Assembly: GCA_016182085.1 (NCBI GenBank)
Contig: JACOYB010000004.1
Coordinates: 211,923 to 275,922 of the forward strand
Reading direction: 5' to 3'
Origin: Candidatus Magasanikiibacteriota bacterium
GTDB taxonomy: Bacteria > Patescibacteriota > Patescibacteriia > Magasanikbacterales > GWA2-37-8
DNA length: 64,000 bases
Part shown: positions 1-60,838 of the stretch, one piece after another
How the letters are laid out: each line of letters begins with the position of its first letter
Numbering within the stretch: the stretch's first letter is position 1
Notes under the pieces: generated by a model
Seen by the model: the letters and a program-made list of their open reading frames with translations, nothing else
What the model was told of the DNA's origin: nothing
The model's database searches: none
Program-made: the position numbers and the translations under genes

Positions 1-614
1 GGATAGGGAAGTCCGATAAGTTTTGCGCCCTTATCAAAACATTCTCCGGCTGCGTCATCTATGGTCGCGCCTAGAAGCTTGTATTTACCATGATTTTTCA
101 TCAAAATAAGTTCCGTGTGCCCGCCGCTGACCACCAAACATAAAGCAGGAAATTGTATCTCCTTTTTGTCATTCTGAGGTTTTGCCGAAGAATCCCTTTT
201 GTACGACCGAGAGGGATCCTTCACATTGTTCAGGATGACATTGTCGAAATTTTTAATCTGTGTAGAATAAATATGTCCTTCAATGTGGTTTGTAGATACG
301 ATTGGCAAATCAGTTATATAAGATAAAGTTCGAGCAGCTTCTACGCCTACCAGTAATCCGGTAATAAGTCCGGGGCCAGAGGTGACGGCGATAGCGTCTG
401 GTTTTGGTTGGTTCTCAAGTACGGCTTCAATAAGCGGTACGATTTTTTCCGCGTGCATGCGGCCGGCAATTTCCGGCACCACGCCGCCATATTTTTTATG
501 AATATCAATTTGCGAAGCGGTTTTTTCGGATAAAACAAAACAACCCTTATCAGAGCAGTCCAGTAGAGCAACCGAAGTGTCATCGCAAGATGATTCAATA
601 CCGAGTATTAACAT
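1..614 (-). CDS. tsaD: tRNA N6-adenosine threonylcarbamoyltransferase TsaD (Kae1/Gcp), N-terminal part; 3' end lies beyond the window start
   Basis: Reverse-strand translation from the ATG at 614 reads MLILGIESSCDDTSVALL..., the TsaD N-terminus. The frame stays open to position 1. Confidence 0.85.
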   Translation of the reverse strand, partial: MLILGIESSCDDTSVALLDCSDKGCFVLSEKTASQIDIHKKYGGVVPEIAGRMHAEKIVPLIEAVLENQPKPDAIAVTSGPGLITGLLVGVEAARTLSYITDLPIVSTNHIEGHIYSTQIKNFDNVILNNVKDPSRSYKRDSSAKPQNDKKEIQFPALCLVVSGGHTELILMKNHGKYKLLGATIDDAAGECFDKGAKLIGLPY

Positions 615-618
615 ATCG

Positions 619-692
619 TGTCAGGGGAGAGATTCGAACTCTCGACCTCAGCGTTATGAATGCTGTGCTCTAACCAACTGAGCTACCCTGAC
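619..692 (-). tRNA. tRNA with CAT anticodon (elongator Met or lysidine-modified Ile2); no encoded CCA
   Basis: Reverse complement GTCAGGGTAGCTCAGTTGGTTAGAGCACAGCATTCATAACGCTGAGGTCGAGAGTTCGAATCTCTCCCCTGACA folds as a cloverleaf with a 7-bp acceptor stem GTCAGGG/CCCTGAC, D-arm, T-arm GAGAG/CTCTC and a TTCATAA anticodon loop. Confidence 0.8.
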
Positions 693-864
693 TTTTACTC
701 TACAATTAGAGATAATCATACTAAAAATACTCTTCAAAGTCAACCCTGTTAAATTCTTTTATTTACTTCTTATTTCCCTTATGTATAATACATATAGCCG
801 TGGCAGGTGCCTGTAGTTTACAGGCATAAACTACGTAACGCATGGCTAAAGAAAGCGAGGAGTT

Positions 865-1482
865 ATGCGCGTTCTTTTTATCGCCATAGGATTGGTTCTT
901 AGTTTGGTTGCAGGTTGTGGCCGCTTCTCGTACATGAATTTGCGCGAACCTATCTATCTGGTAACAGAGGATAGCTTCTTCGCAGGTTGTGAGAAAGATT
1001 GGCAGGGCCAGGAACAGTGTCGCGAGTGGCGTCGGGATCAAGTAAAGGCAGGCATTAGTCAGTGGTTCAGGTTTTTCACCAAGAAAACTAGACCCAAGGT
1101 GTACATTGTTGGGTCAACTAGTGAAATTCCAAACGGCATGATTAACCGGCCGATTCGTTTGCGAGTCCAGCCGGGTCTTTGCAAAGACCCTGATCCAGGT
1201 GAAGCGGGCGCTTGTTACAGGCAGAATTATTTTTGGTCGTCGCCAGAGATGGTATTTGATACAGAACAGCAGATCTTGCAAGCTATGGTAGCTCACGAGT
1301 TTGGTCACGCGCTTGGGCTGAACCATTATGAAAGAGCAGGCAAAGATCGCTCTGTTATGTCGGCGGGCGAAGTAGGCGACAATGTGGTCTGGGATGATAT
1401 AGAGCAGGTGTGTAGGGAACATAGGGAATGCCCGGTTTTGGCAGACGCGGAAGAGTACAAGAATGTTGGATTCGTATATTAG
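865..1482 (+). CDS. metzincin-type zinc metalloprotease lipoprotein; GC-rich relative to the host
   Basis: HEFGHALGLNH matches the HExxHxxGxxH zinc-binding signature. The N-terminus has a signal peptide with an LVAGC lipobox. RBS AAGCGAGGAG lies upstream. GC is about 50 %. Confidence 0.7.
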   Translation: MRVLFIAIGLVLSLVAGCGRFSYMNLREPIYLVTEDSFFAGCEKDWQGQEQCREWRRDQVKAGISQWFRFFTKKTRPKVYIVGSTSEIPNGMINRPIRLRVQPGLCKDPDPGEAGACYRQNYFWSSPEMVFDTEQQILQAMVAHEFGHALGLNHYERAGKDRSVMSAGEVGDNVVWDDIEQVCREHRECPVLADAEEYKNVGFVY

Positions 1483-1496
1483 CCCTTCAAGGACCG

Positions 1497-1521
1497 TTCG
1501 TTATCTTGGTCTCGCAATCTT
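1497..1521 (+). terminator. hairpin after the metalloprotease gene
   Basis: GTCTCGC aatcttcggaaa GCGAGAC stem-loop. Confidence 0.4.
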
Positions 1522-1579
1522 CGGAAAGCGAGACTTGTAGTTTTTATCAAATTTTTAAATGGGTATTTTGGGTAACTTA

Positions 1580-1608
1580 TTGACTTTTGCTTTAAAATAT
1601 AGTAGAAT
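1580..1608 (+). promoter_or_regulatory. sigma70-like promoter upstream of tRNA-Glu
   Basis: TTGACT, 17-nt spacer, TAGAAT. Confidence 0.45.
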
Positions 1609-1640
1609 ATTTTCACGTTTATAAAAATTTAGCTATACAC

Positions 1641-1713
1641 GGCCTCATCGTCTAATGGTTAGGACATTGCCCTTTCAAGGCGAAAATACGGGTTCAATTC
1701 CCGTTGGGGCTAC
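1641..1713 (+). tRNA. tRNA-Glu (TTC)
   Basis: GGCCTCATCGTCTAATGGTTAGGAC...CTTTCAA anticodon loop...GGGTTCAATTCCCGTTGGGGCTA. Typical tRNA-Glu D-arm; acceptor stem has G-U wobbles. Confidence 0.8.
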
Positions 1714-1723
1714 AAATCGAAAC

Positions 1724-1766
1724 ACCTTCATGCAAATGATGGTGTTTTCGTGTAAGGTTACAGGTG
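1724..1766. repeat. hairpin repeat (aacaccTtcatgCaaatgatggtgttttcgtgtaagGttacag), copy 1, directly 3' of tRNA-Glu
   Basis: Near-identical copy at 4274-4316. Contains the perfect inverted repeat AACACCATCAT-gtaa-ATGATGGTGTT. Confidence 0.7.
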
Positions 1767-1844
1767 TAGTTGTATATGTGGCTACAACTTGTTGCTAGTT
1801 AAGGTATATGTTATTCTTAATTTAAGATTTTTAATCAAAATTTT

Positions 1845-2405
1845 ATGAATATGCGCGAAAGAGGAGGTCGTAGACAGAATGAGGCGCAGATGATTAAGGC
1901 AGAAATGGATAGTGATAATGAGAAGCATAACCCAAGTTGGGAGGAGTTAGAGAAAGAGGATATTTTAACTAAGCAAAAGGCGGAAGAGGAAAAGTTAAAA
2001 ACTAAACAAATAGAAGAGCAAAAGATAGAGCGGGAGAAGTTGTTGATTAAACAATTTGAGCAGTTGATAAAAAAATATCTTCAGCTTGTCCAAAAGTATA
2101 AAGCTACAGGTGAAATAATTGATGATAAGTTAAAAGATGAATTAATCCAGGATAGCCAAAGTATTTATCAGCAACTACTGAAATCGAAAGGACTGTTTGG
2201 TTATAATGGGGATGAATTCCTTTCTCTTCTGGGAAGAGCTTATAAGAACGTGGCAAAGCCAACAGCAGATGAAAAAAATTCCATTCTTTTTGCAAGAAGA
2301 AAAGAATCTTCAACTACAGAAGATGAAAATATTATAATTGGCAGGTATGTTGATGAAGGAATGGATTTGTTCTATGGTGATGTGATAGTAGGCTTACCTC
2401 ATTGA
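1845..2405 (+). CDS. hypothetical Lys/Glu-rich coiled-coil protein; low GC; first cassette of the array
   Basis: 186-aa ORF with host-like composition, followed by 33-bp repeat copy 1. Confidence 0.45.
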   Translation: MNMRERGGRRQNEAQMIKAEMDSDNEKHNPSWEELEKEDILTKQKAEEEKLKTKQIEEQKIEREKLLIKQFEQLIKKYLQLVQKYKATGEIIDDKLKDELIQDSQSIYQQLLKSKGLFGYNGDEFLSLLGRAYKNVAKPTADEKNSILFARRKESSTTEDENIIIGRYVDEGMDLFYGDVIVGLPH

Positions 2406-2457
2406 TGCTACGTATTAATAAGCTGGAATGGTTTATTGTGACATTATTAGATAGCTA

Positions 2458-2493
2458 GAATAAAGTTTGCCAAGTGTCTCGATTAACCCTACG
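2458..2493 (+). repeat. 33-bp cassette-boundary direct repeat, copy 1 (AAAGTTTGCCAAGTGTCTCGATTAACCCTACGG)
   Basis: Five copies in the same orientation, at 2458, 4231, 4983, 5546 and 6284. Confidence 0.9.
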
Positions 2494-2496
2494 GAT

Positions 2497-2531
2497 AAAA
2501 AAGACTCCAAATTTATAGGAGTCTTTTTTAT
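2497..2531 (+). terminator. rho-independent terminator-like hairpin
   Basis: AAAAAAGACTCC aaatttat AGGAGTCTTTTTT. Confidence 0.6.
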
Positions 2532-2547
2532 TTTAAAATAAACAATT

Positions 2548-2576
2548 GACGTGTGTTTCTATGTATGTTTAAATTG
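2548..2576 (+). promoter_or_regulatory. sigma70-like promoter ahead of purB
   Basis: TTGACG, 17 nt, near-consensus -10 TTAAAT. RBS GAAAGAAGG sits before the ATG at 2642. Confidence 0.4.
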
Positions 2577-2641
2577 CCATAATTCTGGCCAAAAGCCAGG
2601 CAACAGATTTCAACCAAGCGTACATCGAAAGAAGGCTTGTT

Positions 2642-4081
2642 ATGTCGAGCGACACCTCCCGTTTCCGTCACCCGCTTACGACCCGCTACACCTCGGACGC
2701 CATGCAGGCGCTCTTCTCCGAGGACAAGAAGTTCATGACCTGGCACGACATCTGGATCGTGATCGCGCAGATCCAACAGGCCCTCGGGATCCCGATCACC
2801 GATGGGCAGATCGGCGAGATGGTGGCGGCACGTGGTCATATCAACTACCCGCTCGCTGCCCGTCTGGAGAAGGAGAAGAAGCACGACGTGGTGGCACATG
2901 CCGGGGCGTTCGGGGCGGATTGCCCCAATGCGCAGGCGATCATTCATTACGGCGCGACGAGCTGTGAGGTCACGGACAACGCTGACCTCATCATCATGCG
3001 GGAAGCGCTGGATCTGATCTGCGTTTCTATTGCCAAGGTGATCAACCGGCTGAGTCGCTTCGCTGTACAGTACAGCAGCCTGCCAACGTTGGGTTACACC
3101 CACTTCCAGGCTGCACAGCTCACCACCGTGGGCAAGCGTGCCTGCATGTGGCTGCAAGATCTCGTGATGGATCTCGCGGAACTGGAACGGCTTCGTGCCG
3201 GACTTCGTTTCCGGGGCGCCAAGGGTACCACTGGTACCCAGGCGAGCTTTCTCGAGATCTTTGATGGCAATCACAAGAAGGTGGAAGAACTCGAATCCCG
3301 CTTCGCGGCGGCGTTCGGTTTCAATCACATTTTCGCCATCACTGGTCAGACCTACACGCGTAAGCAGGACTCGGTCGTGTTCCATGCGCTCGCCTCGCTG
3401 GGTGCCACCATCCACAAGATGGCGACGGATCTTCGCCTCCTCGCCCACGAGAAGGAGATCGAAGAACCGTTCGACAAGGATCAGGTGGGCTCTAGTGCCA
3501 TGGCCTACAAGCGCAATCCGATGCGCTGCGAGCGTGCCTGCGGCCTGGCCGAACTGCTCATGAAGTACGGTGGTGTCGGCGTTCACATTCACGCTGATCA
3601 GTGGATGGAACGTACGCTAGATGACAGCGCCATTCGACGGATTGCCATCGCCGAAGCGTTCCTCCTCGCCGACGCGATCCTTATGATCATGCAGAACGTC
3701 TGCGAGGGGCTGGTCGTCTACCCCAAGGTCATCGCACGGAATATTCGGGAGGAGCTGCCATTCATGGCCACCGAGAACTTCATCGTCGCCATGGTGAAGA
3801 AGGGTGGCGATCGTGGGAAAGTCCACGAGCGGATTCGTGTCCACAGCCAAGCCGCTGCACGACGAGTGAAGGAAGAAGGGCTCGATAACAATCTCATCGA
3901 TCTCATCCGGGTTGATTCGTACTTCAGCCCAATCCATGACGAGCTCGATGAGCTCATGAATCCGATCACGTTCATCGGCCGCGCGGCGGAGCAGGTGGAT
4001 CAGTTCCTGGAGACCCAAGTGAACCCGGCCCTCAAGCCCTACCATCAATGTCTCGGCGGAGCTGCTCAGCTCAACGTCTGA
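2642..4081 (+). CDS. purB: adenylosuccinate lyase, eukaryote-like PurB/ADSL clade; very high GC and GC3
   Basis: Fumarate-lyase superfamily motifs [15 protein letters not shown] and [20 protein letters not shown]. Long collinear similarity to human ADSL and B. subtilis PurB. About 62 % GC, with third codon positions almost all G/C. Confidence 0.9.
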   Translation: [479 protein letters not shown]

Positions 4082-4128
4082 TCTGTTCAACTAGTTCGCT
4101 TCACCTAACCGTGGTGGGGTGATCTTTC

Positions 4129-4186
4129 GAGATCTCCCTACCACAGCTTTGTCTATAAAGTTTATGTATAAAGCTGTGGAGATCTC
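4129..4186 (+). repeat. attC-like imperfect palindrome with unpaired bases, copy 1
   Basis: GAGATCTCC[CTAC]CACAGCTTT ... AAAGCTGTGGAGATCTC. The arms are complementary except for 4-5 extra bases on the left arm. Near-identical copy at 5439-5497. Confidence 0.7.
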
Positions 4187-4197
4187 TTCATAATATT

Positions 4198-4222
4198 AAA
4201 AAACACTCATCAGAGTGTTTTT
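4198..4222 (+). terminator. terminator hairpin AAAAACACTCatcaGAGTGTTTTTT
   Basis: Perfect 7-bp stem followed by a T-run. Duplicate at 5508-5535. Confidence 0.6.
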
Positions 4223-4230
4223 TAATATAT

Positions 4231-4264
4231 AGAATAAAGTTTGCCAAGTGTCTCGATTAACCCC
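4231..4264 (+). repeat. 33-bp cassette-boundary repeat, copy 2
   Basis: aaagtttgccaagtgtctcgattaacccc. Confidence 0.9.
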
Positions 4265-4273
4265 ACCATTCCA

Positions 4274-4316
4274 AAACACCATCATGTAAATGATGGTGTT
4301 TTCGTGTAAGATTACA
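4274..4316. repeat. hairpin repeat, copy 2 (see 1724-1766)
   Basis: aacaccatcatgtaaatgatggtgttttcgtgtaagattacag. Confidence 0.7.
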
Positions 4317-4365
4317 GACGTAACGGGTTTGCTTAAATTTAAGATATTTTCAACTCACCGTGCAC

Positions 4366-4394
4366 TTGACATATATCTAAGATATATGTATAAT
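4366..4394 (+). promoter_or_regulatory. perfect-consensus sigma70 promoter
   Basis: TTGACA at 4366-4371, exactly 17 nt, TATAAT at 4389-4394. It drives the toxin-antitoxin pair. Confidence 0.6.
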
Positions 4395-4426
4395 ATATAT
4401 AGTTAAATTAACTAATTTATACAGTT

Positions 4427-4702
4427 ATGACTACGCAAGTAATCTTTAAAATCGATAAAGCTCTTAAAAATAAAGCCATGGCCAAGGCTCAGCGTGAGGG
4501 TATAGCCTTTGCTTCTGTTCTTAAGTTGGCCACGAAAGCCTTTGTTAATGGTGATCTGAACCTAGGTCTGGTTGGTAGTGAACAGTTTAATGTCACCAGC
4601 AATAGAGAAATAAAACAGGCTTTAAAAGATATTGCTAAAAATAAGAATCTTTCGTCAGGTTTTTCTTCAGTCAAAGAAGCTAGGAAGTTCTTAAAAGCGT
4701 AA
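4427..4702 (+). CDS. type II antitoxin, RelB/DinJ family
   Basis: 91-aa protein with DinJ-like N-terminal ribbon-helix-helix region (IDKALKNKAMAKAQREGIAFASVL). Sits 3 nt upstream of a RelE-family toxin gene. Confidence 0.7.
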   Translation: MTTQVIFKIDKALKNKAMAKAQREGIAFASVLKLATKAFVNGDLNLGLVGSEQFNVTSNREIKQALKDIAKNKNLSSGFSSVKEARKFLKA

Positions 4703-4705
4703 TGT

Positions 4706-4960
4706 ATGGAAGTAAAATTCCATAAAAATTTTAAGAAAAGGTTTAAAAAGATTCCTGTAAAAATACAGGAGCAGTTTTACCAACGGTTAGAAGTGTTTTT
4801 AACAGATAAATTTGATAAAACCTTGAATAATCATTCAGTGGGTAAAGCTTTTCCAGATTGTAAAAGCATCAATGTAAGTGGTGACTATCGAGCTATTTTC
4901 CAAGAACAAGGAGATGTGGCTATATTTCTTACCGTCGGCACTCATTCTGAGCTTTATTAA
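4706..4960 (+). CDS. type II toxin, RelE/ParE (YafQ-like) family
   Basis: 84 aa. The C-terminal YRAIFQEQGDVAIFLTVGTHSELY matches the RelE/ParE fold signature. Operon arrangement with the preceding antitoxin. Confidence 0.75.
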   Translation: MEVKFHKNFKKRFKKIPVKIQEQFYQRLEVFLTDKFDKTLNNHSVGKAFPDCKSINVSGDYRAIFQEQGDVAIFLTVGTHSELY

Positions 4961-4982
4961 TATTTAATTGGGCGTTTTGTTA

Positions 4983-5016
4983 AAAAGTTTGCCAAGTGTC
5001 TCGATTAACCCTACGG
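4983..5016 (+). repeat. 33-bp cassette-boundary repeat, copy 3
   Basis: aaaagtttgccaagtgtctcgattaaccctacgg. Confidence 0.9.
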
Positions 5017-5100
5017 CTTTAGAACATGTAGAACCCATGTCTCTGAACAAAAAAGCAACGCAAATAGCGACTGCCTTTTTGTTTTTTAAACATTAGGGTA
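5017..5100 (+). repeat. second repeat family (P-type unit), intact copy
   Basis: CTTTAGAACATGTAGAACCCATGTCTC | TGAACAAAAAAGCAACGCAAATAGCGACTGCCTTTTTGTTTTTTAAACATTAGGGTA. The left half recurs at 6311-6345 and the right half at 6714-6772. Confidence 0.7.
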
Positions 5101-5125
5101 GGGGGATGGGATCGGTATAAGTATA

Positions 5126-5154
5126 TTGACAGACGGGTTAAATAATGGTATAAT
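5126..5154 (+). promoter_or_regulatory. perfect-consensus sigma70 promoter plus palindromic operator-like site
   Basis: TTGACA at 5126-5131, 17 nt, TATAAT at 5149-5154. Followed by the palindrome GTCTGTttgACAGAC, then RBS AAAGGAGG. Confidence 0.6.
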
Positions 5155-5188
5155 TGCCGGTCTGTTTGACAGACAAAGGAGGTCTGCC

Positions 5189-5398
5189 GTGAAAGAGCGT
5201 AAGCATCGGATCATCATCAAGAACCTCGAGGTTACCAACGAGCTCGTGGCCCAGATGACCAAGGATGACCTCGGTCAGATCGAGCTCATCAGCTGGTCGG
5301 TCGAAGATGCCTTCCATTTCCACAGCAGAGTGGCCAACGGCGGTGACACTCTGTACTCGCAGAGTATCATCATTGTGTTGGTCACGTACAGGGACTAA
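5189..5398 (+). CDS. hypothetical small protein (69 aa) in a GC-rich cassette; GTG start
   Basis: Consensus RBS AAAGGAGG lies 6 nt before the GTG at 5189, in frame with the track ORF 5126..5398. About 58 % GC. No recognisable family. Confidence 0.45.
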   Translation: MKERKHRIIIKNLEVTNELVAQMTKDDLGQIELISWSVEDAFHFHSRVANGGDTLYSQSIIIVLVTYRD

Positions 5399-5438
5399 CG
5401 TAGGTCGCCGCATAAGTAGGTGGAGCAATCATCAGTAC

Positions 5439-5497
5439 GAGATCTCCCATCACAGCTATATTCATAATTATTTTATGTATAAAGCTGTGGAGATCTC
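5439..5497 (+). repeat. attC-like imperfect palindrome, copy 2
   Basis: GAGATCTCC[CATC]ACAGCT...AAAGCTGTGGAGATCTC. Confidence 0.7.
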
Positions 5498-5507
5498 TTC
5501 ATAATAT

Positions 5508-5535
5508 TAAAAAACACTCATTAGAGTGTTTTTTA
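5508..5535 (+). terminator. terminator hairpin AAAAACACTCattaGAGTGTTTTTT
   Basis: Duplicate of 4198-4222. Confidence 0.6.
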
Positions 5536-5545
5536 ATATCTGGAA

Positions 5546-5578
5546 AAAAGTTTCCCAAGTGTCTCGATTAACCCTACA
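5546..5578 (+). repeat. 33-bp cassette-boundary repeat, copy 4 (degenerate)
   Basis: aaaaagtttCccaagtgtctcgattaaccctacAc. Confidence 0.85.
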
Positions 5579-5582
5579 CTTT

Positions 5583-5612
5583 TCAAAATCCGCTAACCAT
5601 AGCGGATTTTGT
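5583..5612 (+). terminator. hairpin AAAATCCGCTaaccatAGCGGATTTT
   Basis: Perfect 10-bp stem flanked by T-runs. Confidence 0.5.
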
Positions 5613-5622
5613 GTTTATCATG

Positions 5623-5651
5623 TTGACATAGAGTGCAATTTATGCTATATT
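5623..5651 (+). promoter_or_regulatory. sigma70 promoter
   Basis: TTGACA, 17 nt, TATATT. Confidence 0.5.
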
Positions 5652-5869
5652 ATTTTGTTCTCCTTCGGAGAGCCTGTCTCTGTGTGGGACAGTCAGGGTA
5701 GCGCATAAAAATTTATAAAACAAAGCTATGAGTAGTAGGCCCCCTGTCTAATTAATTTGGGGCTAAGTAAACGAACTATTTTTGTTTGTAGAGCGTTGCC
5801 AAAACCATCAGAACAACCATCTACCCCCTAAGTTTGAAAACTCTGGGGACTTGCCGAATGAGGTGCGTC

Positions 5870-6178
5870 ATGATGTTTGCTCCATGTTACCTTGCGGACA
5901 AATTCGGTGGTGGATTCAACGCCACCGAGCAGGATCACTGGCTGGTCGTACGCGGCCTGCTCATCATGTGGATCCGGGATGCTAATCCCGAAGGGGATTG
6001 GTACCAGCATCTCTCTCGTGCGGTCAACGAGACGAACCGGGTTCTTCGGTTGCTGGGTGTTCCAGACCCCAAGAAGGCTCTCCGTCCGTCCGCCGAACTG
6101 TTCGGCCACTACCACAACGAGGTGTCCAAGCAGTGGGACTGGCTGTACCAGTTGGCCCCCAACGGCTGGGGTCGCTAA
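5870..6178 (+). CDS. hypothetical protein (103 aa) in a GC-rich cassette
   Basis: ORF in the 5834 frame. The most plausible start is ATG 5870, with GAGG 6 nt upstream. About 60 % GC. No recognisable family. Confidence 0.4.
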   Translation: MMFAPCYLADKFGGGFNATEQDHWLVVRGLLIMWIRDANPEGDWYQHLSRAVNETNRVLRLLGVPDPKKALRPSAELFGHYHNEVSKQWDWLYQLAPNGWGR

Positions 6179-6248
6179 AGACGACCGGTGATTGCCCGCA
6201 CCTTAATCTGGCAAGCGACCGAACGAGCGCCTCTCGTTCAATGAACAA

Positions 6249-6282
6249 AAGCAGTCTTTAAGAAAAGGCTGTTTTTGTTTTA
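6249..6282 (+). terminator. terminator-like hairpin
   Basis: AAAAGCAGTCTTTaagaaAAGGCTGTTTTTGTTTT. Confidence 0.45.
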
Positions 6283-6283
6283 A

Positions 6284-6318
6284 AAAAGTTTGCCACCTGA
6301 CTCGATTAACTCTGCGGC
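6284..6318 (+). repeat. 33-bp cassette-boundary repeat, copy 5 (degenerate)
   Basis: aaaaagtttgccaCCtgActcgattaacTctGcgg. Confidence 0.8.
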
Positions 6319-6409
6319 CTTAGGACATGTAGAATTCATCTTTCTAAAAAATGTATGATTGAATATTCCGGTAATTTCTGGTATTGTTTCTGTGTAATTA
6401 CCATTACAT

Positions 6410-6706
6410 ATGCAAAAAGATTTTAACTATTATAATAATAAAGTACTCGATTTTTATGATAAGAAAATTTTTCGTGTTCGTTTAAAAGTTACGAAGTATT
6501 TTTTAATGATAGTGGGCCCGTTTAGTTTGCTTTGGGGATTTTTTGATTTTATACAGCTTTTAGGAGATCGGGTTGCTCCCGAACATATTGCAGACAAAGA
6601 GAGTGATGTGATAATTCGGATTGGGACAGGCGCTGTACTCATCTTAATCTGGTTTATTTTTTTTGTTATCCTAGATAAGGATAAGTCTGAGACATACAGA
6701 CAGTAA
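6410..6706 (+). CDS. hypothetical small membrane protein (two predicted TM helices); low GC
   Basis: 98-aa ORF with two hydrophobic segments. It lies inside a disrupted P-type repeat unit. Confidence 0.45.
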   Translation: MQKDFNYYNNKVLDFYDKKIFRVRLKVTKYFLMIVGPFSLLWGFFDFIQLLGDRVAPEHIADKESDVIIRIGTGAVLILIWFIFFVILDKDKSETYRQ

Positions 6707-6713
6707 CAGGTGT

Positions 6714-6772
6714 GAACAAAAAAGCAGCGCAACAAGCGACTGTTCTTTTGTTTTAATCTAACATTAGGGTTC
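6714..6772 (+). repeat. right half of the P-type repeat unit
   Basis: tgaacaaaaaagcagcgcaacaagcgactgttcttttgttttaatctaacattagggtt matches 5043-5100. Confidence 0.7.
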
Positions 6773-6904
6773 TTTTTATTTATATTTTATAATTATTTTA
6801 TCTGTTCTCTAGGAAAATGGGGATAAGGTTGCATTTATACGGGAGTCTAGCCTGGCGTGGGGCAAAAAGCGTGCTATAATATAGAAAATTTATTTTTATA
6901 CTAT

Positions 6905-7576
6905 ATGACCATTCTGATAATTGAAGATGAAAAAGATATAATAAAATTTTTAAAGCCCGGTTTGGAAGCCGAATGTTTTGCGGTAGATGTGGCCGAAGAC
7001 GGGGAAAAGGGATTGTTGTGCGCTTTATCCAAAGAGTATGATGTGATAATTTTAGATAACAACCTGCCTAAAAAATCAGGCCAGGAAGTTTGCGAGGAAT
7101 TACGGGCAAATAAAAAAACGACCCCCATCATTATGCTGTCGGTTCTTTCGGATGTAGATAAAAAAGTTGAACTGCTCAATACCGGAGCCGATGATTATTT
7201 AACCAAGCCTTTTTCTTTTCAAGAGTTGCTTGCCAGAATTAGAAGCCTTTTGCGCCGTCCCAAAAAAATAGAGGATGAAATTTTACGTATAGATGATTTG
7301 GAGTTAGATTCAAGACGTAATACGGTAAAACGAGGCGGTGAGGAAATTAGTCTGACGCGCAAGCAATTTATGCTCTTGGAGTATTTGATGCGTAATGCGG
7401 GTATGGTGCTGACGCGGGGGATGATTATGGAGCATGTCTGGGAAATGGATGCTGATCCGTTTTCTAACACCATTGAGACTCATATTTTGAGCTTGCGTAA
7501 AAAAATAAAAAATGCAAATAAGCCGCGCGAGTTTATTCAAACGGTGCCAGGCAGAGGGTATAAGCTAGAGGCGTAG
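6905..7576 (+). CDS. OmpR/PhoB-family response regulator
   Basis: Receiver domain (MTILIIEDE...D..LDNNLP...TTPIIMLS) plus winged-helix trans_reg_C domain (LTRKQFMLLEYL...VPGRGYKL). Extended -10 TGcTATAAT lies upstream. Confidence 0.85.
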   Translation: MTILIIEDEKDIIKFLKPGLEAECFAVDVAEDGEKGLLCALSKEYDVIILDNNLPKKSGQEVCEELRANKKTTPIIMLSVLSDVDKKVELLNTGADDYLTKPFSFQELLARIRSLLRRPKKIEDEILRIDDLELDSRRNTVKRGGEEISLTRKQFMLLEYLMRNAGMVLTRGMIMEHVWEMDADPFSNTIETHILSLRKKIKNANKPREFIQTVPGRGYKLEA

Positions 7577-7781
7577 AAATCTTCATTAAATTTTATTTTT
7601 ATTTTATCTATACTTTAATTTTTTTTATAAAAAACTTTAGAATAATTTTAAATTTATTTTTCCTTCGTTAGATTATAATAAAGCTTATCTAGTCTGTTCC
7701 TGCTCTGCCGCTCTTTTAAAATTCAAGATGGAGAAGGGGTGACATAGTAGCAGGATGGGATCGTGATAAAGGGAGGACATC

Positions 7782-8528
7782 ATGAGCGATCTTGATTTGC
7801 AAGTACGAAATGCGACGGCGACTGATCTAGACAGAATAGCGGAGCTAGAAACTAATATATTCGCCGCTCACAGTATTACGCCATTTGCGCGCGAGCACTT
7901 TTTCGCTTGGCTTGAAGTGTATCCACGGGGATTCTTCGTGGCCGAACAAGGCGGTGAAGTTGTAGGTTATACATACACCCAAGTCATCAATTGTGATTAC
8001 AGCGATCCATATGAACTGGATCGTTGGGTCTCCTTTGATGCTGTAAATGACAGGGGCTATACCCGTGCTTCGCATCGCTGCGATGGGGGCTATCACTTGG
8101 GTGTTAATATTGGTTCAATTGTTCCCGGAGCCGGCAAGCTGCTCGTGGAGGCTTTGGTCAGACTTGGGGAAAATACGCAAAAGCCCCTCCTGGGGATGTC
8201 GCGTATCAGCGGGCTTAAATCATACGCTGATCAGTTGACGCGGGCGGGTATAGTGGATGCCGCGGTTAGTCATGCTGCCAAACACGCGATTGCTTTATTT
8301 TACGTATTAGAGTGTGCTAAACTGGTGCATGGGTCTGTAAGGCTTATGCCAAAATGCGCGGGTCTAAATTGCTCTGGTTTGCCCACATTGCCAGTGCCGA
8401 GCGCGCCAGATCCGGTACTGTGCAAATACTTGCGCAATAAATATTTTGCGATTTGGGCGCTGCTTCCCGAGTTTATTAAAGATCCGGCCAGCCTTAACTA
8501 CGCAGTTCTGATTGGGCCGGCCAAGTAA
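7782..8528 (+). CDS. GNAT-family N-acetyltransferase domain protein; moderately GC-rich
   Basis: N-terminal acetyltransferase-like fold (VAEQGGEVVGYTYTQ). RBS AAGGGAGG. GC is above that of the flanking genes. Confidence 0.5.
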   Translation: MSDLDLQVRNATATDLDRIAELETNIFAAHSITPFAREHFFAWLEVYPRGFFVAEQGGEVVGYTYTQVINCDYSDPYELDRWVSFDAVNDRGYTRASHRCDGGYHLGVNIGSIVPGAGKLLVEALVRLGENTQKPLLGMSRISGLKSYADQLTRAGIVDAAVSHAAKHAIALFYVLECAKLVHGSVRLMPKCAGLNCSGLPTLPVPSAPDPVLCKYLRNKYFAIWALLPEFIKDPASLNYAVLIGPAK

Positions 8529-8575
8529 GGTGCGCGCCGGAGTTGTGGCTGTATTAAGAATAATATTTTTGTCTT

Positions 8576-10558
8576 GTGTTCCTCTTCTCCTATAGTGCCG
8601 CTGTTGTTGGAGCCATTTGTTTGGTAATGGCAGCAGTTATCTTAAATAAAAAGCGCGACCGCTTATCTTTATATTTGGTCTTATCCACAGTTGGTGTGGG
8701 TTTATGGAACATATCAAACGCTTTTGCCGATCTGGCTTGGAATAATTTAACAGCCAGGATTTGGTGCGGTTTCGCGCTTATTGGTTCAATGATTTTCATT
8801 GTATTTTATGTAATTTTCTTAGAACAATTTTTAACTCAGCGTCCCTTCAAGAACTATTTAGCGGCTATCTTTATTCTGATACCGGCTATATTTTTTTCCT
8901 CGCTTTCTTTTAGCGGCATCTATATTACCGATATTATAATCCAGGGTACCGCGCCCGCCATTACAATCCCGGGAAAGATTAATTATTTTATTTTAATTTA
9001 TTCTTTGCTTATTATTTTTTATGGTTTATGGCGACTGCAAAGTTTTTACGGGTCTTTATCGCTCGCTAAACGCAAGCAGATACTGTATGTAAAAGCCGGG
9101 TTTATTATAAGTCTTTGCGCCGGTATTATTTTTACGATTATTTTCCCTTTCCTTGGTAATTTCATGTTTTTTTCCCTGGCGGCGCAATTTACCATACTCT
9201 CCGTTGTTTTGACTATGTACACGATGTATAAGCATAATTTTCTTGATATTAATATTATTATCCAGCGCGGTTTGGTATACGCATTGTTGCTGGGTCTGGT
9301 AATTTTTTTCTATTTGGCGACCTTATTTATCGTTCAATCGTTATTTTTTAACCACGGACAAATTTTATATCTTATTGTAGCTATTATTACCTGCGCCGCC
9401 GGTATATTTTCCGTCCCGAAGATAGACGCTTGGCTGCGCCGCTTGACTGATAAAATTTTTTTTAAAGACAAATACGACCCCGCCGCCGTATTAAAAGAAT
9501 TAAGCGAAACCCTAAATAGCAATTTGGATTTACGCGATTTGGTATTGAAAACAACAAATACTTTGAAAAAAAATTTAAAAATCAAAGATATTTATTTGGA
9601 ATTTTTACCTTCGGATTGTACTCAGGCCCTGCAGAAGTTAGAGGATTTACAAAAAAAATACGACTCATATGTAATGTTGCGTTTGGAAAAATTAGAAAAG
9701 ACAGATAAACCGCTGGGGGTAATGTTTTTAAGCCCCAAACTCTCCGGGGATGGGTATAGTGACATGGATAATAGTTTGCTTAATATCTTTGCGCATCACA
9801 TGACGCTCGCCTTAGAGAAATCTCAGCTATATGAACAAGTCAAGGATTATTCTAAGAATTTAGAAATTAAAATAGAGCAGCGCATGGCCGAGCTTAAACA
9901 GCTGCAAGAAAAACAGTCTCAAGAACTATTTGATATTGCTCATCAGCTGCAAACACCGCTTACCGTGCTTAAAGGCCAGGTTCAAATACTCGCCGCGGAT
10001 TTGCAAGAAAAAGATAAAACCCAGCTTTTAGAGACTAATGTAGACAGAATATCGCGGTTTGTTTCAGGGCTGCTTAAACTTGCCAGGCTGGATTTTGAAG
10101 GTGAGCAACGCAGAGAAAAAATAAATTTTAGCGAGCTGCTTTCCGGTTTGGTAGAAGAGTTTTCGGTTATAGCCCAGGAGAGCAGGATTGTATTTGAACA
10201 TGATATTGAAAAGAATATTTTTGTGATGGGCGATACAAATAAATTGATTGAACTCGTCAGTAACTTGGTGAGTAACGCTATGAAGTATATCGCTCATGAA
10301 AGAAGGGTGGCAATCAATCTGAAAAAAGTTGACGCTTGGGCTAGGCTTGAAATTGTAGATACCGGAGCAGGTATTTCCGCAGAAGATCTATCAAACTTGT
10401 TTAAACGATTTTACCGCGGCCACACGGCTGCCGGCAGCGGCACCGGTCTCGGCTTGGCAATTTGTAAAAAAATTATTGATGTGCACCAAGGAAAAATTAG
10501 AATTACGAGCGAACTAAATAAAGGCACGCAGGCGGAGGTATTGTTGCCGCTTGCCTAA
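8576..10558 (+). CDS. sensor histidine kinase with polytopic N-terminal membrane domain
   Basis: HisKA H-box (FDIAHQLQTPLT) and HATPase_c G-boxes (DTGAGIS, GTGLGLAICKKII). GTG start at 8576, or possibly the internal ATG 8627. Confidence 0.85.
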   Translation: MFLFSYSAAVVGAICLVMAAVILNKKRDRLSLYLVLSTVGVGLWNISNAFADLAWNNLTARIWCGFALIGSMIFIVFYVIFLEQFLTQRPFKNYLAAIFILIPAIFFSSLSFSGIYITDIIIQGTAPAITIPGKINYFILIYSLLIIFYGLWRLQSFYGSLSLAKRKQILYVKAGFIISLCAGIIFTIIFPFLGNFMFFSLAAQFTILSVVLTMYTMYKHNFLDINIIIQRGLVYALLLGLVIFFYLATLFIVQSLFFNHGQILYLIVAIITCAAGIFSVPKIDAWLRRLTDKIFFKDKYDPAAVLKELSETLNSNLDLRDLVLKTTNTLKKNLKIKDIYLEFLPSDCTQALQKLEDLQKKYDSYVMLRLEKLEKTDKPLGVMFLSPKLSGDGYSDMDNSLLNIFAHHMTLALEKSQLYEQVKDYSKNLEIKIEQRMAELKQLQEKQSQELFDIAHQLQTPLTVLKGQVQILAADLQEKDKTQLLETNVDRISRFVSGLLKLARLDFEGEQRREKINFSELLSGLVEEFSVIAQESRIVFEHDIEKNIFVMGDTNKLIELVSNLVSNAMKYIAHERRVAINLKKVDAWARLEIVDTGAGISAEDLSNLFKRFYRGHTAAGSGTGLGLAICKKIIDVHQGKIRITSELNKGTQAEVLLPLA

Positions 10559-11631: not shown

Positions 11632-12165
11632 ATGAATTTTCCATTAAGACAAAAAATAACAATTCTACTTGCCAGCTTATTGCTGGTGGTTTTTTTAATT
11701 CCGTATATTGCCAGGGCCCAGACAACCACCGGCGATTTACCGCCAACTTCGGCCCCTTCTAGTGCGGCTGCCACATATAGTCCCGCAGCGCCTGTAAGCA
11801 GCGACATGTCTCCGGTTTACATTAGTTTATTACAAAATTTAATCACCTTTGGGGAAAGTACGGGGTTGGGTTCCACCGATCCAAGATTAATTGTGGCGCG
11901 CCTTATCCGGTTGGCTATGGGATTTGTAGGTATTATAGTCCTTGTAATGATACTCCTAAGCGGACTTGCAATGATGACTTCGGGCGGAGATGAAGAAAAG
12001 GTAAGCAGCGCCAAGAAAACATTTTTTAATGCTATTATCGGACTTGTGATTATGCTTTCGGCATATAGTATCGTGGTGTTTGTTTTTAATGCCATAACTG
12101 GCGCCAGCGGTGGCAGTAGTGCTGTTGAAGCTCCAACTACGCCAGATCCGGTGGTTAACCCCTAG
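11632..12165 (+). CDS. secreted two-TM protein, possible VirB2/TrbC-like pilin
   Basis: Signal peptide, Pro/Ser/Ala-rich segment, then two hydrophobic helices (LAMGFVGIIVLVMILLSGLAMM and AIIGLVIMLSAYSIVVFVF). This is the usual T4SS pilin architecture. Confidence 0.35.
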   Translation: MNFPLRQKITILLASLLLVVFLIPYIARAQTTTGDLPPTSAPSSAAATYSPAAPVSSDMSPVYISLLQNLITFGESTGLGSTDPRLIVARLIRLAMGFVGIIVLVMILLSGLAMMTSGGDEEKVSSAKKTFFNAIIGLVIMLSAYSIVVFVFNAITGASGGSSAVEAPTTPDPVVNP

Positions 12166-19142: not shown

Positions 19143-19246
19143 AAAATTAAACCTTAAACTGAAAGACGGCGACCCCGTCTTTCTTGATTTTTTACCCTAA
19201 GTTCGGTAACATAAATGAATAAAATTGTTTTTATATGGGCTCAGCT

Positions 19247-43329: not shown

Positions 43330-43355
43330 TATGTTAGTTGCCAGTTTGGCGTAAT

Positions 43356-51101: not shown

Positions 51102-51551
51102 CTAGTTTGATGGTGGTGAGAAGTTGCCGCGCAACTGCTCCGTATTGAGCCTGATGTGGACGATAGTGCCGTTGGTCAAGTCGATGTTCAGCGTGCCCTG
51201 GCCTTCCTGCAGAGGAAGATTGAACACGAAGCCGCCGTCTGAACCGTTCAGCAGGTTGCAGTCGAGCTGGCAGCTATCCGTCTGGTTGGGCGGCATGTCG
51301 GCCACTCGGCAGTCGAACTGAACCGGTGCGCTGACCGAGATCGTAATGCCAGACAGCTGGATGGCCTGCGCGCAGATCTCGGTTGGCATCGAGCCATCGG
51401 TCTGCACCATGTTGCCGGCGTCCACCATGACATCGTCGTCGCCATCGTCGGGCGGGCTGCCGCAGGCCGTGGCGCCGATGCCGACTGCCAGGAACAGAAT
51501 CGACGTGATGACGTTGAACCAGAACAGGGTCAGTTTGCTTTCCGGGTGCAT
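51102..51551 (-). CDS. GC-rich lipoprotein of unknown function
   Basis: Signal peptide with lipobox (LAVGIGATAC). RBS GAGGAG. About 58 % GC, versus roughly 35 % in the flanking DNA. Confidence 0.55.
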   Translation of the reverse strand: MHPESKLTLFWFNVITSILFLAVGIGATACGSPPDDGDDDVMVDAGNMVQTDGSMPTEICAQAIQLSGITISVSAPVQFDCRVADMPPNQTDSCQLDCNLLNGSDGGFVFNLPLQEGQGTLNIDLTNGTIVHIRLNTEQLRGNFSPPSN

Positions 51552-55359: not shown

Positions 55360-55365
55360 AAAAAT

Positions 55366-58035: not shown

Positions 58036-58113
58036 TACATTATGTATAATGTATTATCGAGCGAACGACACTATATGCGGCCTTTAGGCCCATATAAGCC
58101 GGAGTAGCACACT

Positions 58114-58186
58114 GTCATTCCCGCCCGGGAGCGGGAATCCAGGCAATTCGACCGGATACTAGATTCCCGCTTGCGGCGGGAATGAC
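58114..58186. repeat. GTCATTCCCGC-family palindromic element, copy D
   Basis: GTCATTCCCGCCCGGGAGCGGGAATCCAG...CTAGATTCCCGCTTGCGGCGGGAATGAC. Confidence 0.8.
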
Positions 58187-58209
58187 AACAAAAACGTAAA
58201 ATAAAAAGT

Positions 58210-58887: not shown

Positions 58888-58921
58888 GATTTAGTACTTA
58901 GAATTTAGGATTTAATATTGT

Positions 58922-60799: not shown

Positions 60800-60838
60800 G
60801 AATATAGAATTTAGAAATTAGAATTTAACACAAAACGT

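What the first reader, a model, noticed from the sequence alone, without database searches (positions are those of the whole stretch)
2642..4081. Eukaryote-type adenylosuccinate lyase with near-saturated GC3 embedded in a 35 % GC genome
The 479-aa product aligns along its whole length with human ADSL. [20 protein letters not shown] matches human [20 protein letters not shown], and [15 protein letters not shown] matches GSSAMPYKRNPMRSE. By eye this is roughly 65-70 % identity, clearly closer than to E. coli or B. subtilis PurB.

Codons are almost exclusively G/C-ending. No other purine-biosynthesis genes are nearby. CPR bacteria generally lack de novo purine synthesis, so an isolated purB is more likely a salvage or AMP-cycle function, or simply passenger cargo.
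Basis: partly seen in the sequence, partly recalled or inferred. Interest (0 to 1): 0.55.

Follow-up and report, generated by a model that had tools for sequence, protein, structure and literature searches.

The report
Foreign purine-enzyme gene in tiny bacterium
A small, AT-rich CPR (Patescibacteria) bacterium carries an intact, GC-rich adenylosuccinate lyase gene that it got from other bacteria, not from a eukaryote; the gene sits as a self-contained promoter-to-terminator module in a repeat-punctuated island of foreign genes, which is an ordinary kind of event with an unusually tidy architecture.

Summary
The ORF at 2642-4081 is real, intact, and a confident adenylosuccinate lyase (TIGR00928 above cutoff; catalytic His81/His154/Ser284/Lys290 present).

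- Identity to human ADSL is 58%, not 65-70%.
- GC3 is 0.75, not saturated.
- The window is 41% GC.

The compositional anomaly is still strong. GC3 lies 8 SD above 37 other ORFs, with sharp steps at about 2600 and 4100.

"Eukaryote-type" misleads. This ADSL subfamily is also the normal PurB of Planctomycetota, Clostridia, Fusobacterium and Myxococcota. The closest relatives sit on bacterial contigs with Shine-Dalgarno sites. There are no introns and no poly-A.

The nearest relative (75% aa) is an equally GC-rich copy in a second AT-rich CPR contig, beside a CPR-typical large serine recombinase. The two share promoter, 5'UTR, a bulged 3' hairpin with compensatory changes, and a terminator. dN/dS is 0.17 at dS of about 1.

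In the window the module is one of five cassettes separated by a 33-nt core repeat, next to tRNA-Glu and alongside a ParE toxin-antitoxin pair. Classical integron features are absent.

Verdict: horizontally acquired, selected bacterial purB in a cassette island. Interest is modest.

The parts
618..692 (-). tRNA-Met (CAT); left edge of the variable region
   Evidence: ARAGORN; Rfam tRNA 69.8 bits
1641..1713 (+). tRNA-Glu (TTC), 0.9 kb upstream of the ADSL module
   Evidence: ARAGORN; Rfam
1720..1768 (+). 49-nt direct repeat (terminator hairpin + CGTGTAAGRTTACAG), copy 1, immediately 3' of tRNA-Glu. With copy 2 it brackets ORF186 plus the ADSL module.
   Evidence: the repeat finder D4, 90% identity; sequences
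2457..2489 (+). Core repeat copy A (AGAATAAAGTTTGCCAAGTGTCTCGATTAACCC)
   Evidence: nhmmer E 1e-15. All five copies lie only within 2450-6323 of the 64-kb window.
2546..2575 (+). Sigma-70-like promoter TTGACG-18-TAAATT of the ADSL module
   Evidence: -35 and -10 conserved in L002/L004
2564..2610 (+). 47-nt block (-10, start of transcript, small hairpin about 2584-2600) that is 44/47 identical in the second CPR copy
   Evidence: Not a known RNA family. UTR fold not significant (z -0.9).
2627..2635 (+). Shine-Dalgarno-like GAAAGAAGG
   Evidence: sequence; conserved in L002
2642..4081 (+). Adenylosuccinate lyase CDS, 479 aa, GC 0.59, GC3 0.75
4129..4186 (+). Long bulged hairpin GAGATCTCC...GGAGATCTC. 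The same element recurs at 5439-5497 and after the L002 gene, with compensatory stem changes.
   Evidence: (I18, I19)
4193..4228 (+). Intrinsic terminator (16-bp perfect stem, T-run); near-identical copy at 5504-5539
   Evidence: (I20, I21)
4231..4263 (+). Core repeat copy B (identical to A)
4274..4322 (+). 49-nt direct repeat, copy 2
   Evidence: (D4)
4427..4960 (+). Next cassette: antitoxin-like (Arc-like, weak) plus ParE/RelE toxin, behind a perfect TTGACA-17-TATAAT promoter (4366-4394)
4979..5011 (+). Core repeat copy C
   Evidence: (D1)
5189..5398 (+). Small GC-rich ORF cassette (69 aa, no family hit) behind a perfect promoter at 5126-5154, followed by the same hairpin + terminator as ADSL
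5542..5574 (+). Core repeat copy D
5870..6178 (+). GC-rich ORF cassette (102 aa). Only 3 relatives among 5.8 billion clusters. In the three contigs examined, which carry two of them, the gene is GC-rich in AT-rich flanks; the L093/L094 contigs also have a diverged core repeat.
6280..6312 (+). Core repeat copy E (diverged)
   Evidence: (D1)

Best explanation
The ORF is a functional adenylosuccinate lyase (PurB/ADSL, EC 4.3.2.2). It belongs to the subfamily shared by eukaryotes and several bacterial phyla. A CPR (Magasanikbacteria) lineage acquired it horizontally from a GC-rich bacterium.

It travels and is expressed as a self-contained module: its own sigma-70-type promoter, short 5'UTR with SD, CDS, a conserved bulged 3' hairpin, and an intrinsic terminator.

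That module is one unit of a roughly 4-kb array of single-gene cassettes. The cassettes are separated by a 33-nt core repeat and lie just downstream of tRNA-Glu. The array also holds a ParE-type toxin-antitoxin pair and two GC-rich orphan ORFs.

A homologous module sits in a second CPR genome, next to a CPR-typical large serine recombinase. The module family is therefore mobile cargo within CPR.

Shown: identity as ADSL, foreign composition, bacterial nearest relatives, purifying selection, module and array anatomy.

Inferred: the enzyme cleaves adenylosuccinate to AMP + fumarate, working with a PurA encoded elsewhere or with imported intermediates. This would rebalance scavenged purine nucleotides in an organism lacking the de novo pathway. 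Insertion was by site-specific or repeat-mediated recombination.
For: Identity as ADSL:
- TIGR00928 scores 379 bits against a 326 cutoff.
- The alignment to human ADSL is gapless, E 1e-178.
- H81, H154, S284, K290, R15/Y16, T106/S107, Q236, R324 and S329 are all present. 126 of 134 near-invariant columns are kept.

Foreign composition:
- GC3 z = 8.1, and the gene is the top tetranucleotide outlier.
- GC steps are sharp at both ends.

Bacterial source:
- Closest sequences are 62-64% identical and include Planctomycetes MAGs. They lie on 0.69-0.70 GC contigs with ComEC, HisKA and Ser/Thr kinase neighbours.
- A 94% bootstrap clade joins the gene with P0075, P0084 and P0086. The contigs of P0075 and P0084 carry bacterial neighbours and SD sites; that of P0086 holds only the gene.
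- The subfamily is the normal purB in Clostridia and Fusobacterium and in Planctomycetota.

Selection: dN/dS = 0.17, dS about 1.0 against L002.

Module:
- Homology with L002 runs from 2564 to 4203 only.
- It includes the promoter/UTR and a hairpin with compensatory changes plus terminator.

The second host is CPR. Its recombinase has 75-93% identical homologues; of the few that carry a source name, most are Parcubacteria, Nomurabacteria, Pacebacteria, Moraniibacteriota or Patescibacteria. In L098 the recombinase lies in a defence island.

Array: five core repeats confined to 2450-6323, consensus promoters before cassettes, and a TA pair.

The join is real. Independent Logan contigs from SRR12113430 reproduce 700-2485 and 2465-4190 exactly, carrying both GC junctions.

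Literature:
- Genomic islands and HGT, including nucleotide-metabolism genes, are documented in Patescibacteria (PMC12455944).
- 93% of Patescibacteria genomes lack de novo nucleotide synthesis, and such genes are phylogenetically scattered (bioRxiv 10.64898/2026.06.21.733656).
Against: - No PurA or any other purine gene was found in the 64 kb. The metabolic role is inferred, and the rest of the 410-kb contig and the MAG could not be read.
- The donor phylum is not resolved. Deeper NJ nodes have 50-65% support, and no ML tree was possible.
- The window copy deviates at 8 of 134 near-invariant columns. Other sequences have a median of 0 and a 95th percentile of 3. This could mean relaxed constraint or altered specificity.
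- No recombinase is visible in the window, so the insertion mechanism is not shown.
- Both copies keep GC3 of 0.75-0.78 despite near-saturated synonymous divergence: 54% of 4-fold sites differ, a third of them G<->C. A single old acquisition followed by amelioration in AT-rich hosts only marginally explains this.
- The order of cassettes rests on the original assembler, because short-k contigs break in the repeats.
Confidence: 0.75

Rival explanations
1. Eukaryote-to-CPR transfer: the gene derives from a eukaryotic ADSL, for example via cDNA or a protist host.
For: The best solved-structure hits are human, fungal and schistosome ADSL. Eukaryotes reach 56-60% identity, only slightly below the best bacterial hits. 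The deep branching order between the CPR clade, the eukaryotes and the Planctomycetes-type clade is poorly supported.
Against: - Bacterial sequences are closer (62-64%).
- The 94%-supported sister sequences that have neighbours are on bacterial contigs with SD sites.
- The ORF is colinear with no intron-like gaps.
- There is no poly-A after the stop.
- A bacterial promoter, SD and terminator are conserved with the gene.
- The subfamily is widespread in bacteria.
Confidence: 0.05
2. Assembly or binning artefact: a GC-rich fragment from another organism was stitched into the CPR contig through short repeats.
For: The segment is flanked by exact 33-nt repeats, and a 106-nt repeat lies downstream. 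Short-k contigs break there. No coverage data were available.
Against: - One independent contig (L001) contains the GC-rich gene plus 177 nt of AT-rich upstream and 109 nt of downstream sequence. Both ends finish in array-specific repeats.
- The same GC-rich gene with homologous AT-rich promoter/UTR, hairpin and terminator occurs in three other samples, on a CPR-type contig.
- Other cassettes show the same GC-rich-gene/AT-rich-flank pattern in related contigs.
Confidence: 0.05
3. The array is a dedicated, integron-like gene-capture platform of CPR bacteria. A recombinase acting on the 33-nt core and/or the bulged GAGATCTCC hairpin inserts promoter-bearing cassettes. ADSL is one captured cassette.
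For: - Five equally oriented units are separated by a conserved core found nowhere else in 64 kb.
- The hairpin recurs after two cassettes and in L002, with compensatory changes.
- A TA cassette lies inside the array, as in chromosomal integrons.
- ORF98 looks like an insertion between a core extension and its terminator when junctions C and E are compared.
- A diverged core is present at the homologous cassette in a related contig whose downstream flank matches a different part of the window, at 10.66 kb.
- A serine recombinase sits next to the L002 copy.
Against: - No recombinase is in the window.
- The core itself is unstructured.
- No RYYYAAC...GTTRRRY pairs occur beyond chance.
- Cassettes carry their own promoters, unlike integron cassettes.
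- Part of the pattern could be a tandem duplication of a roughly 1.3-kb scaffold (D1/D3 spacings 1301-1311).
- Scans of viral and JGI metagenome contigs for the core found only chance matches.
Confidence: 0.15
4. Non-functional or decaying passenger: the gene was carried in and is not used.
For: The gene is isolated from any pathway partner in 64 kb. Codon usage is far from the host's. There are 8 deviations at near-invariant columns.
Against: - The 479-codon ORF is intact, with all catalytic residues.
- dN/dS is 0.17 over dS of about 1.
- The promoter, SD and terminator are conserved.
Confidence: 0.08

Closest known systems
Human/eukaryotic adenylosuccinate lyase (e.g. PDB 2J91, 4FFX)
   Same: 58% identity over 471 residues without gaps. 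Same length, same signature loop GSSAM.YKRNP, and the same catalytic His/Ser/Lys.
   Different: Not nested among eukaryotes in the tree. It has bacterial expression signals and no introns.
Bacterial PurB of the same subfamily (Planctomycetota, Myxococcales, Clostridia, Fusobacterium, Deferribacterales; NCBIfam TIGR00928)
   Same: 50-64% identity, full length, both Pfam domains PF00206 + PF10397. This is the most probable source pool.
   Different: In those genomes the gene has host-like GC (for example 0.65-0.68 in 0.69-0.70 contigs). It sits among housekeeping genes, once next to a purC-purE fusion. Here it is a compositional island in a CPR genome.
Genomic islands / individually transferred genes in Patescibacteria (PMC12455944)
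   Same: A foreign metabolic (nucleotide-related) gene in a compositionally deviant island of a streamlined CPR genome.
   Different: Here the island is a regular array of promoter-bearing single-gene modules separated by a 33-nt core. Whether that paper describes such an architecture was not checked; only keyword passages were read.
Phage 'morons' (own knowledge: Hendrix/Juhala, lambdoid phages)
   Same: A single gene flanked by its own promoter and intrinsic terminator, with base composition unlike its surroundings.
   Different: No phage genes surround it. It sits in a chromosomal tRNA-proximal array.
Chromosomal integron cassette arrays / CALINs (own knowledge: Cury et al. 2016)
   Same: Co-oriented small cassettes separated by a repeated element. 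A TA module lies inside the array, and cassette GC is heterogeneous.
   Different: No attC consensus or fold in the core, no IntI, and cassettes have their own promoters.

Membership tests
Adenylosuccinate lyase (PurB/ADSL; TIGR00928, Lyase_1 + ADSL_C) | Whole-protein score above the curated equivalog cutoff | tested here: met
   379.1 bits vs cutoff 326.2, model positions 1-435 of 436; PF00206 + PF10397
Adenylosuccinate lyase (PurB/ADSL; TIGR00928, Lyase_1 + ADSL_C) | Catalytic general acid His (human H159), general base Ser in the signature loop (S289), and K295, H86 | tested here: met
   H154, S284, K290, H81 at the aligned positions (offset 5). Signature is [11 protein letters not shown] at 283-293. 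The residue roles come from my own knowledge of the ADSL literature.
Adenylosuccinate lyase (PurB/ADSL; TIGR00928, Lyase_1 + ADSL_C) | Full-length colinearity with solved ADSL structures | tested here: met
   Residues 6-476 align to 14-484 of 4FFX without gaps, E 1.4e-178
Adenylosuccinate lyase (PurB/ADSL; TIGR00928, Lyase_1 + ADSL_C) | Cleavage of adenylosuccinate and SAICAR to fumarate + AMP/AICAR | not testable with these tools
   Needs an enzyme assay or purB complementation
Gene of eukaryotic origin | Nested within a eukaryotic clade | tested here: not met
   The NJ tree groups it (100%) with P0002 and (94%) with three further sequences. Two of these are on bacterial contigs; the third contig holds only the gene. 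Eukaryotes cluster elsewhere. Deep nodes are weak.
Gene of eukaryotic origin | Introns, poly-A remnant or other cDNA/eukaryotic gene hallmarks | tested here: not met
   Continuous ORF; no A-run after the stop; sigma-70 promoter, SD and intrinsic terminator
Integron gene cassette | attC site: imperfect hairpin with R''(RYYYAAC)/R'(GTTRRRY) boxes at the cassette 3' end | tested here: not met
   A regex scan of 1-9000 found one site seen on both strands (7197-7309, inside the response-regulator gene), which is no more than shuffles give. The core repeat is unpaired in folds. A different bulged hairpin exists after two cassettes.
Integron gene cassette | Integron integrase (IntI tyrosine recombinase) and attI adjacent to the array | tested here: not met
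   No recombinase domain in the roughly 39 window ORFs scanned with Pfam. tblastn with the L002 serine recombinase was negative. Sequence outside the window was not examined.
Integron gene cassette | Mostly promoterless cassettes expressed from a common Pc | tested here: not met
   Consensus or near-consensus promoters precede the individual cassettes (2546, 4366, 5126, 5623)
tRNA-associated genomic island | Adjacent to a tRNA gene, atypical composition, flanking direct repeats | tested here: met
   tRNA-Met 618-692 and tRNA-Glu 1641-1713; mosaic GC; 49-nt direct repeats at 1720-1768 and 4274-4322
tRNA-associated genomic island | Integrase/recombinase gene at one end; att core derived from the tRNA 3' end | tested here: not met
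   No recombinase in the window. The core repeat is no more similar to either tRNA than shuffled controls. The homologous module in L002 does lie 1 kb from a large serine recombinase.

The most novel reading that the evidence does not exclude
The GC-rich composition may not be a fading trace of recent transfer. It may be a maintained property of a family of promoter-bearing cassettes that circulate among CPR genomes in a previously undescribed, integron-like capture array. That array would be defined by the 33-nt core plus the bulged GAGATCTCC hairpin, possibly serviced in trans by the CPR-wide large serine recombinase. The cassettes might shuttle between the episymbiont and a GC-rich host, or even be tuned to host-type expression. 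This would explain three observations together. Two copies with near-saturated synonymous divergence both keep GC3 of 0.75-0.78 in 0.36-0.41 GC genomes. Their AT-rich regulatory flanks stay conserved. Neighbouring orphan cassettes show the same pattern in related contigs.
Probability: 0.1. Interest if true: 0.7.

Novelty: new member of a known kind. Interest (0 to 1): 0.3.

Why it matters
CPR/Patescibacteria mostly lack nucleotide synthesis and live off hosts. A selected, horizontally acquired purB shows how such reduced genomes patch single steps of nucleotide interconversion.

The gene is also a clean, datable example. A second copy at dS of about 1 allows study of how foreign genes persist compositionally in AT-rich symbionts.

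The surrounding repeat-delimited array of self-expressed cassettes next to tRNA-Glu is a candidate integration hotspot. It could be mined for how CPR bacteria capture genes.

The finding also corrects an attractive but wrong inference. High similarity to human ADSL does not indicate a eukaryotic donor, because that subfamily is common in bacteria.

Tried and rejected
1. Riboswitch or structured leader upstream of ADSL. Rfam at E<=1 found nothing in 2490-2641 on the sense strand. UTR folds were not better than shuffles (z -0.9 and -1.45). Rejected; only a 6-bp conserved hairpin remains.

2. Core repeat as a tRNA 3' fragment (att site). Local alignments to both tRNAs were no better than shuffles. 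Rejected.

3. Classical attC. Regex scan and folds were negative.

4. Core repeat or 5'UTR in public viral contigs: zero hits. Core in JGI metagenome contigs: two hits, both chance matches inside coding regions.

5. Phage or plasmid vehicle. The best ADSL hits in phage and plasmid collections are <=52% identical and are ordinary purB genes of Firmicutes-type genomes.

6. Polarising 4-fold-site changes to test amelioration. Results flipped with the composition of the outgroup and counts were small. Inconclusive.

7. Similarity between ORF186 upstream of ADSL and the ORF153 upstream of the L002 copy: none.

8. Retrieval of the NCBI 410-kb contig to look for purA or an integrase. The look-ups returned only short Logan contigs.

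9. The GTDB species-representative scan returned no CPR genome among its best 80 (max 54% identity) and did not contain the source MAG.
Full report
**Observation.**
The ORF 2642..4081(+) exists and encodes 479 aa without interruption. Its GC is 0.59 (GC1 0.63, GC2 0.39, GC3 0.75). The window as a whole is 41.3% GC. The 100-nt bins on either side are 0.30-0.39, with abrupt steps at about 2600 and about 4100.

Thirty-seven other long ORFs of the window have GC3 of 0.388 +/- 0.045, which puts the gene 8.1 SD away. The 1.44-kb tile covering it has the largest tetranucleotide distance in the window, 0.67 against a median of 0.27.

- 'Near-saturated GC3' is wrong; a quarter of codons end in A/T.
- '35% GC genome' is wrong.
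- Identity to human ADSL is 58.4% (275/471), not 65-70%.
- The two quoted peptide matches are exact.

**What the protein is.**
It passes the curated NCBIfam equivalog for adenylosuccinate lyase (379 bits, cutoff 326). It carries both Pfam domains. It aligns gap-free to human ADSL over residues 6-476 (E 1e-178).

The residues aligned to human H86, H159, S289, K295, R20/Y21, T111/S112, Q241, R329 and S334 are all conserved.

It keeps 126 of 134 columns that are at least 97% invariant in 132 relatives. The eight deviations include an R->K just before the catalytic His, shared with its closest homologue, and an R->E at 304. That is more than the 95th percentile of the family, which is 3. I note this as possible relaxation or specialisation.

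GenBank already annotates the identical protein as adenylosuccinate lyase of a Candidatus Magasanikbacteria MAG, MBI2037554.1, on a 410-kb contig.

**Host.**
The rest of the window looks like a CPR chromosome. It encodes RNase Y, TruB, IF-2, LeuRS, NusA, YidC, GroEL, a release factor, Sua5, ComEC, ComF-like, NifU, a T4SS-type pilin and a VirB4/TraG-like ATPase. No other purine-pathway gene was found in it.

**Is it 'eukaryote-type'?**
Only in the sense of a subfamily.
- Among 5.8 billion clusters, the best hits after the self-match are one 75% sequence (P0002) and then dozens of 60-64% metagenomic proteins. These include NCBI 'Planctomycetes bacterium' and 'Myxococcales' MAGs. Named eukaryotes reach 56-60%.
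- Two of the 62-64% hits lie on 0.69-0.70 GC contigs with ComEC, histidine kinase and Ser/Thr kinases.
- GTDB species representatives with 50-54% identity are Planctomycetota (Phycisphaerae, Pirellulales), Clostridia and Deferribacterales.
- In complete genomes, the same subfamily is the annotated purB of Monoglobus, Tepidibacter, Vescimonas and Fusobacterium.

An NJ tree of 134 sequences with 200 bootstraps joins the query with P0002 (100%), and then with P0075, P0084 and P0086 (94%). Eukaryotes cluster elsewhere, intermingled with a few bacterial sequences. Deeper nodes are weak, at 50-65%.

The sister sequences that can be placed are bacterial:
- L087 carries MreB, MreC, PBP2 and an IS200 transposase.
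- L088 has strong SD motifs and a purC-purE fusion next to ADSL.
- L089, the P0086 contig, holds only the gene.

There is no intron-like gap, no poly-A remnant, and the gene has bacterial expression signals. A eukaryotic donor is therefore not supported. A GC-rich bacterium is the likely source, phylum unresolved.

**The module.**
The 75% homologue (L002-L004, three Logan samples) is itself GC-rich (0.60, GC3 0.78) and sits in 0.36 GC flanks. BLASTN homology with the window runs from 2564 to 4203 and stops there. It covers, in order:
- the promoter (TTGACG-18-TAAATT);
- a 47-nt block that is 44/47 identical;
- the SD;
- the CDS;
- a small hairpin;
- a roughly 58-nt bulged hairpin, GAGATCTCC...GGAGATCTC, whose inner stem differs by compensatory changes (ACCACAGCTTT/AAAGCTGTGG versus ACCACCGTTAT/ATAACGGTGG);
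- the AT-rich lead-in to an intrinsic terminator.

The coding regions differ at 54% of 4-fold sites. dS is about 1.0, dN is 0.18 and dN/dS is 0.17. So the enzyme has been under purifying selection over a long divergence. This argues against inert cargo.

L002 encodes a large serine recombinase 1 kb upstream. That recombinase has thousands of 75-93% identical relatives. Of the few that carry a source name, most are Parcubacteria, Nomurabacteria, Pacebacteria, Moraniibacteriota or 'Patescibacteria group'. In a 512-kb contig it sits in a defence island with Hachiman and CBASS genes. The second host is therefore also CPR, and the module is associated with mobile islands there.

**The array.**
In the window, a 33-nt core (AGAATAAAGTTTGCCAAGTGTCTCGATTAACCC) occurs at 2457, 4231, 4979, 5542 and 6280. 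It occurs nowhere else in 64 kb. It delimits five co-oriented units:
1. ADSL.
2. An antitoxin/ParE-RelE pair behind a perfect TTGACA-17-TATAAT promoter.
3. A 69-aa GC-rich ORF behind another perfect promoter, followed by a 94%-identical copy of the ADSL 3' arm of the hairpin, terminator and core.
4. A 102-aa GC-rich ORF.
5. A 98-aa membrane-like ORF.

The region starts just after tRNA-Met(-) and tRNA-Glu(+). A 49-nt direct repeat lies immediately 3' of tRNA-Glu (1720-1768) and again at 4274-4322. The two copies bracket ORF186 plus the ADSL module.

The 102-aa ORF has only three relatives in the whole protein collection (71-83%). In the contigs examined, the gene is again GC-rich in AT-rich flanks. 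In L093/L094 a diverged copy of the core precedes it, and a conserved promoter/leader is shared by L093 and L097. One contig continues into sequence homologous to window 10.66 kb, so the arrangement differs between relatives.

Classical integron features are absent. There are no attC-type boxes beyond chance. The core is unstructured. No integrase or serine recombinase is in the window. The cassettes have their own promoters. The anatomy resembles phage 'morons' strung together at a tRNA-proximal hotspot.

**Artefact check.**
Independent Logan contigs from SRR12113430 reproduce window 700-2485 and 2465-4190 exactly. The latter carries both GC junctions and ends inside array-specific repeats. 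Together with the second CPR copy, this makes a chimeric join unlikely. Cassette order within the array and read coverage could not be checked.

**Function (inferred).**
ADSL catalyses adenylosuccinate -> AMP + fumarate and SAICAR -> AICAR + fumarate (established biochemistry). A 2026 preprint reports that 93% of Patescibacteria genomes lack de novo nucleotide synthesis, and that nucleotide-synthesis genes are phylogenetically scattered in the phylum. HGT of nucleotide-metabolism genes into Patescibacteria islands has been described. The most likely role is the last step of IMP->AMP conversion, rebalancing scavenged purines. This requires a PurA that I could not look for outside the window.

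**Open puzzle.**
Both copies keep GC3 of 0.75-0.78 although their synonymous sites are about 80% of the way to saturation, and a third of the differences are G<->C. Polarisation with outgroups was inconclusive.

A single ancient capture followed by amelioration fits only if the ancestor was almost fully GC at third positions. The alternatives are repeated capture from related donors into a conserved scaffold, or maintenance of composition. Neither is excluded. This is the basis of the low-probability novel reading.

**Verdict.**
This is a real, functional-looking, horizontally acquired bacterial-type purB in a CPR genome, packaged as an autonomous module in a repeat-delimited cassette island. 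The eukaryotic-origin angle is not supported. The event type is known, and the array architecture is the more interesting by-product.

Noticed in passing
window 19235-22765 (+): The leucyl-tRNA synthetase is 1176 aa. A NUDIX domain (residues 405-522) and a serine-hydrolase/alpha-beta-hydrolase domain (616-776) are inserted between the editing domain and the anticodon-binding domain.
   Followed up: no
window 51102-51551 (-): A second extreme compositional outlier: a 149-aa ORF with GC 0.60 and GC3 0.83 and a hydrophobic N-terminus. It lies between a 2540-aa giant protein gene and a 1077-aa gene. Apart from itself, only one clear relative (51% identity) exists among 1.84 billion representatives.
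   Followed up: partly
window 5652-5869 (+); L093 about 300-533; L097 about 400-586: A roughly 200-nt leader lies between a near-consensus promoter and the GC-rich 102-aa ORF. It is conserved across three contigs, with apparent paired segments (GTTCTCC..GGAGAGC; CCTG...CAGT). There is no Rfam match at E<=1.
   Followed up: no
Most of the few named hits come from several named CPR classes. In L098 it sits inside a defence island (HamA + helicase, SMODS/SAVED/Cap2/JAB CBASS, MTase).
   Followed up: partly
L088 1834-3132: A bacterial contig (SD sites, 0.42 GC) encodes a 432-aa SAICAR-synthetase + AIR-carboxylase fusion directly after the ADSL gene. Its best solved-structure match is human PAICS.
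   Followed up: partly
window 7782-8528 (+): A GNAT-like ORF (weak Pfam hit) with GC 0.50 sits between the response-regulator gene (6857-7576) and the histidine-kinase gene (8576-10558). Its upstream 23 nt (7747-7769) repeat a motif found at 5098-5120 in the cassette array. This suggests another inserted module.
   Followed up: no
window 865-1482 (+): A 205-aa ORF with an HEFGHALGLNH metzincin zinc-binding motif (sub-threshold Peptidase_M10 hit), GC 0.49, lies between the two tRNA genes. A Peptidase_M10 gene also lies in the L098 island.
   Followed up: no
window 11632-12165, 52126-61426: T4SS-like components: a T4SS_pilin-domain protein, and a cluster of large unannotated proteins ending in a TraG/VirB4-like P-loop ATPase (58922-60799). 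A 2540-aa protein lies at 43338-50960.
   Followed up: no
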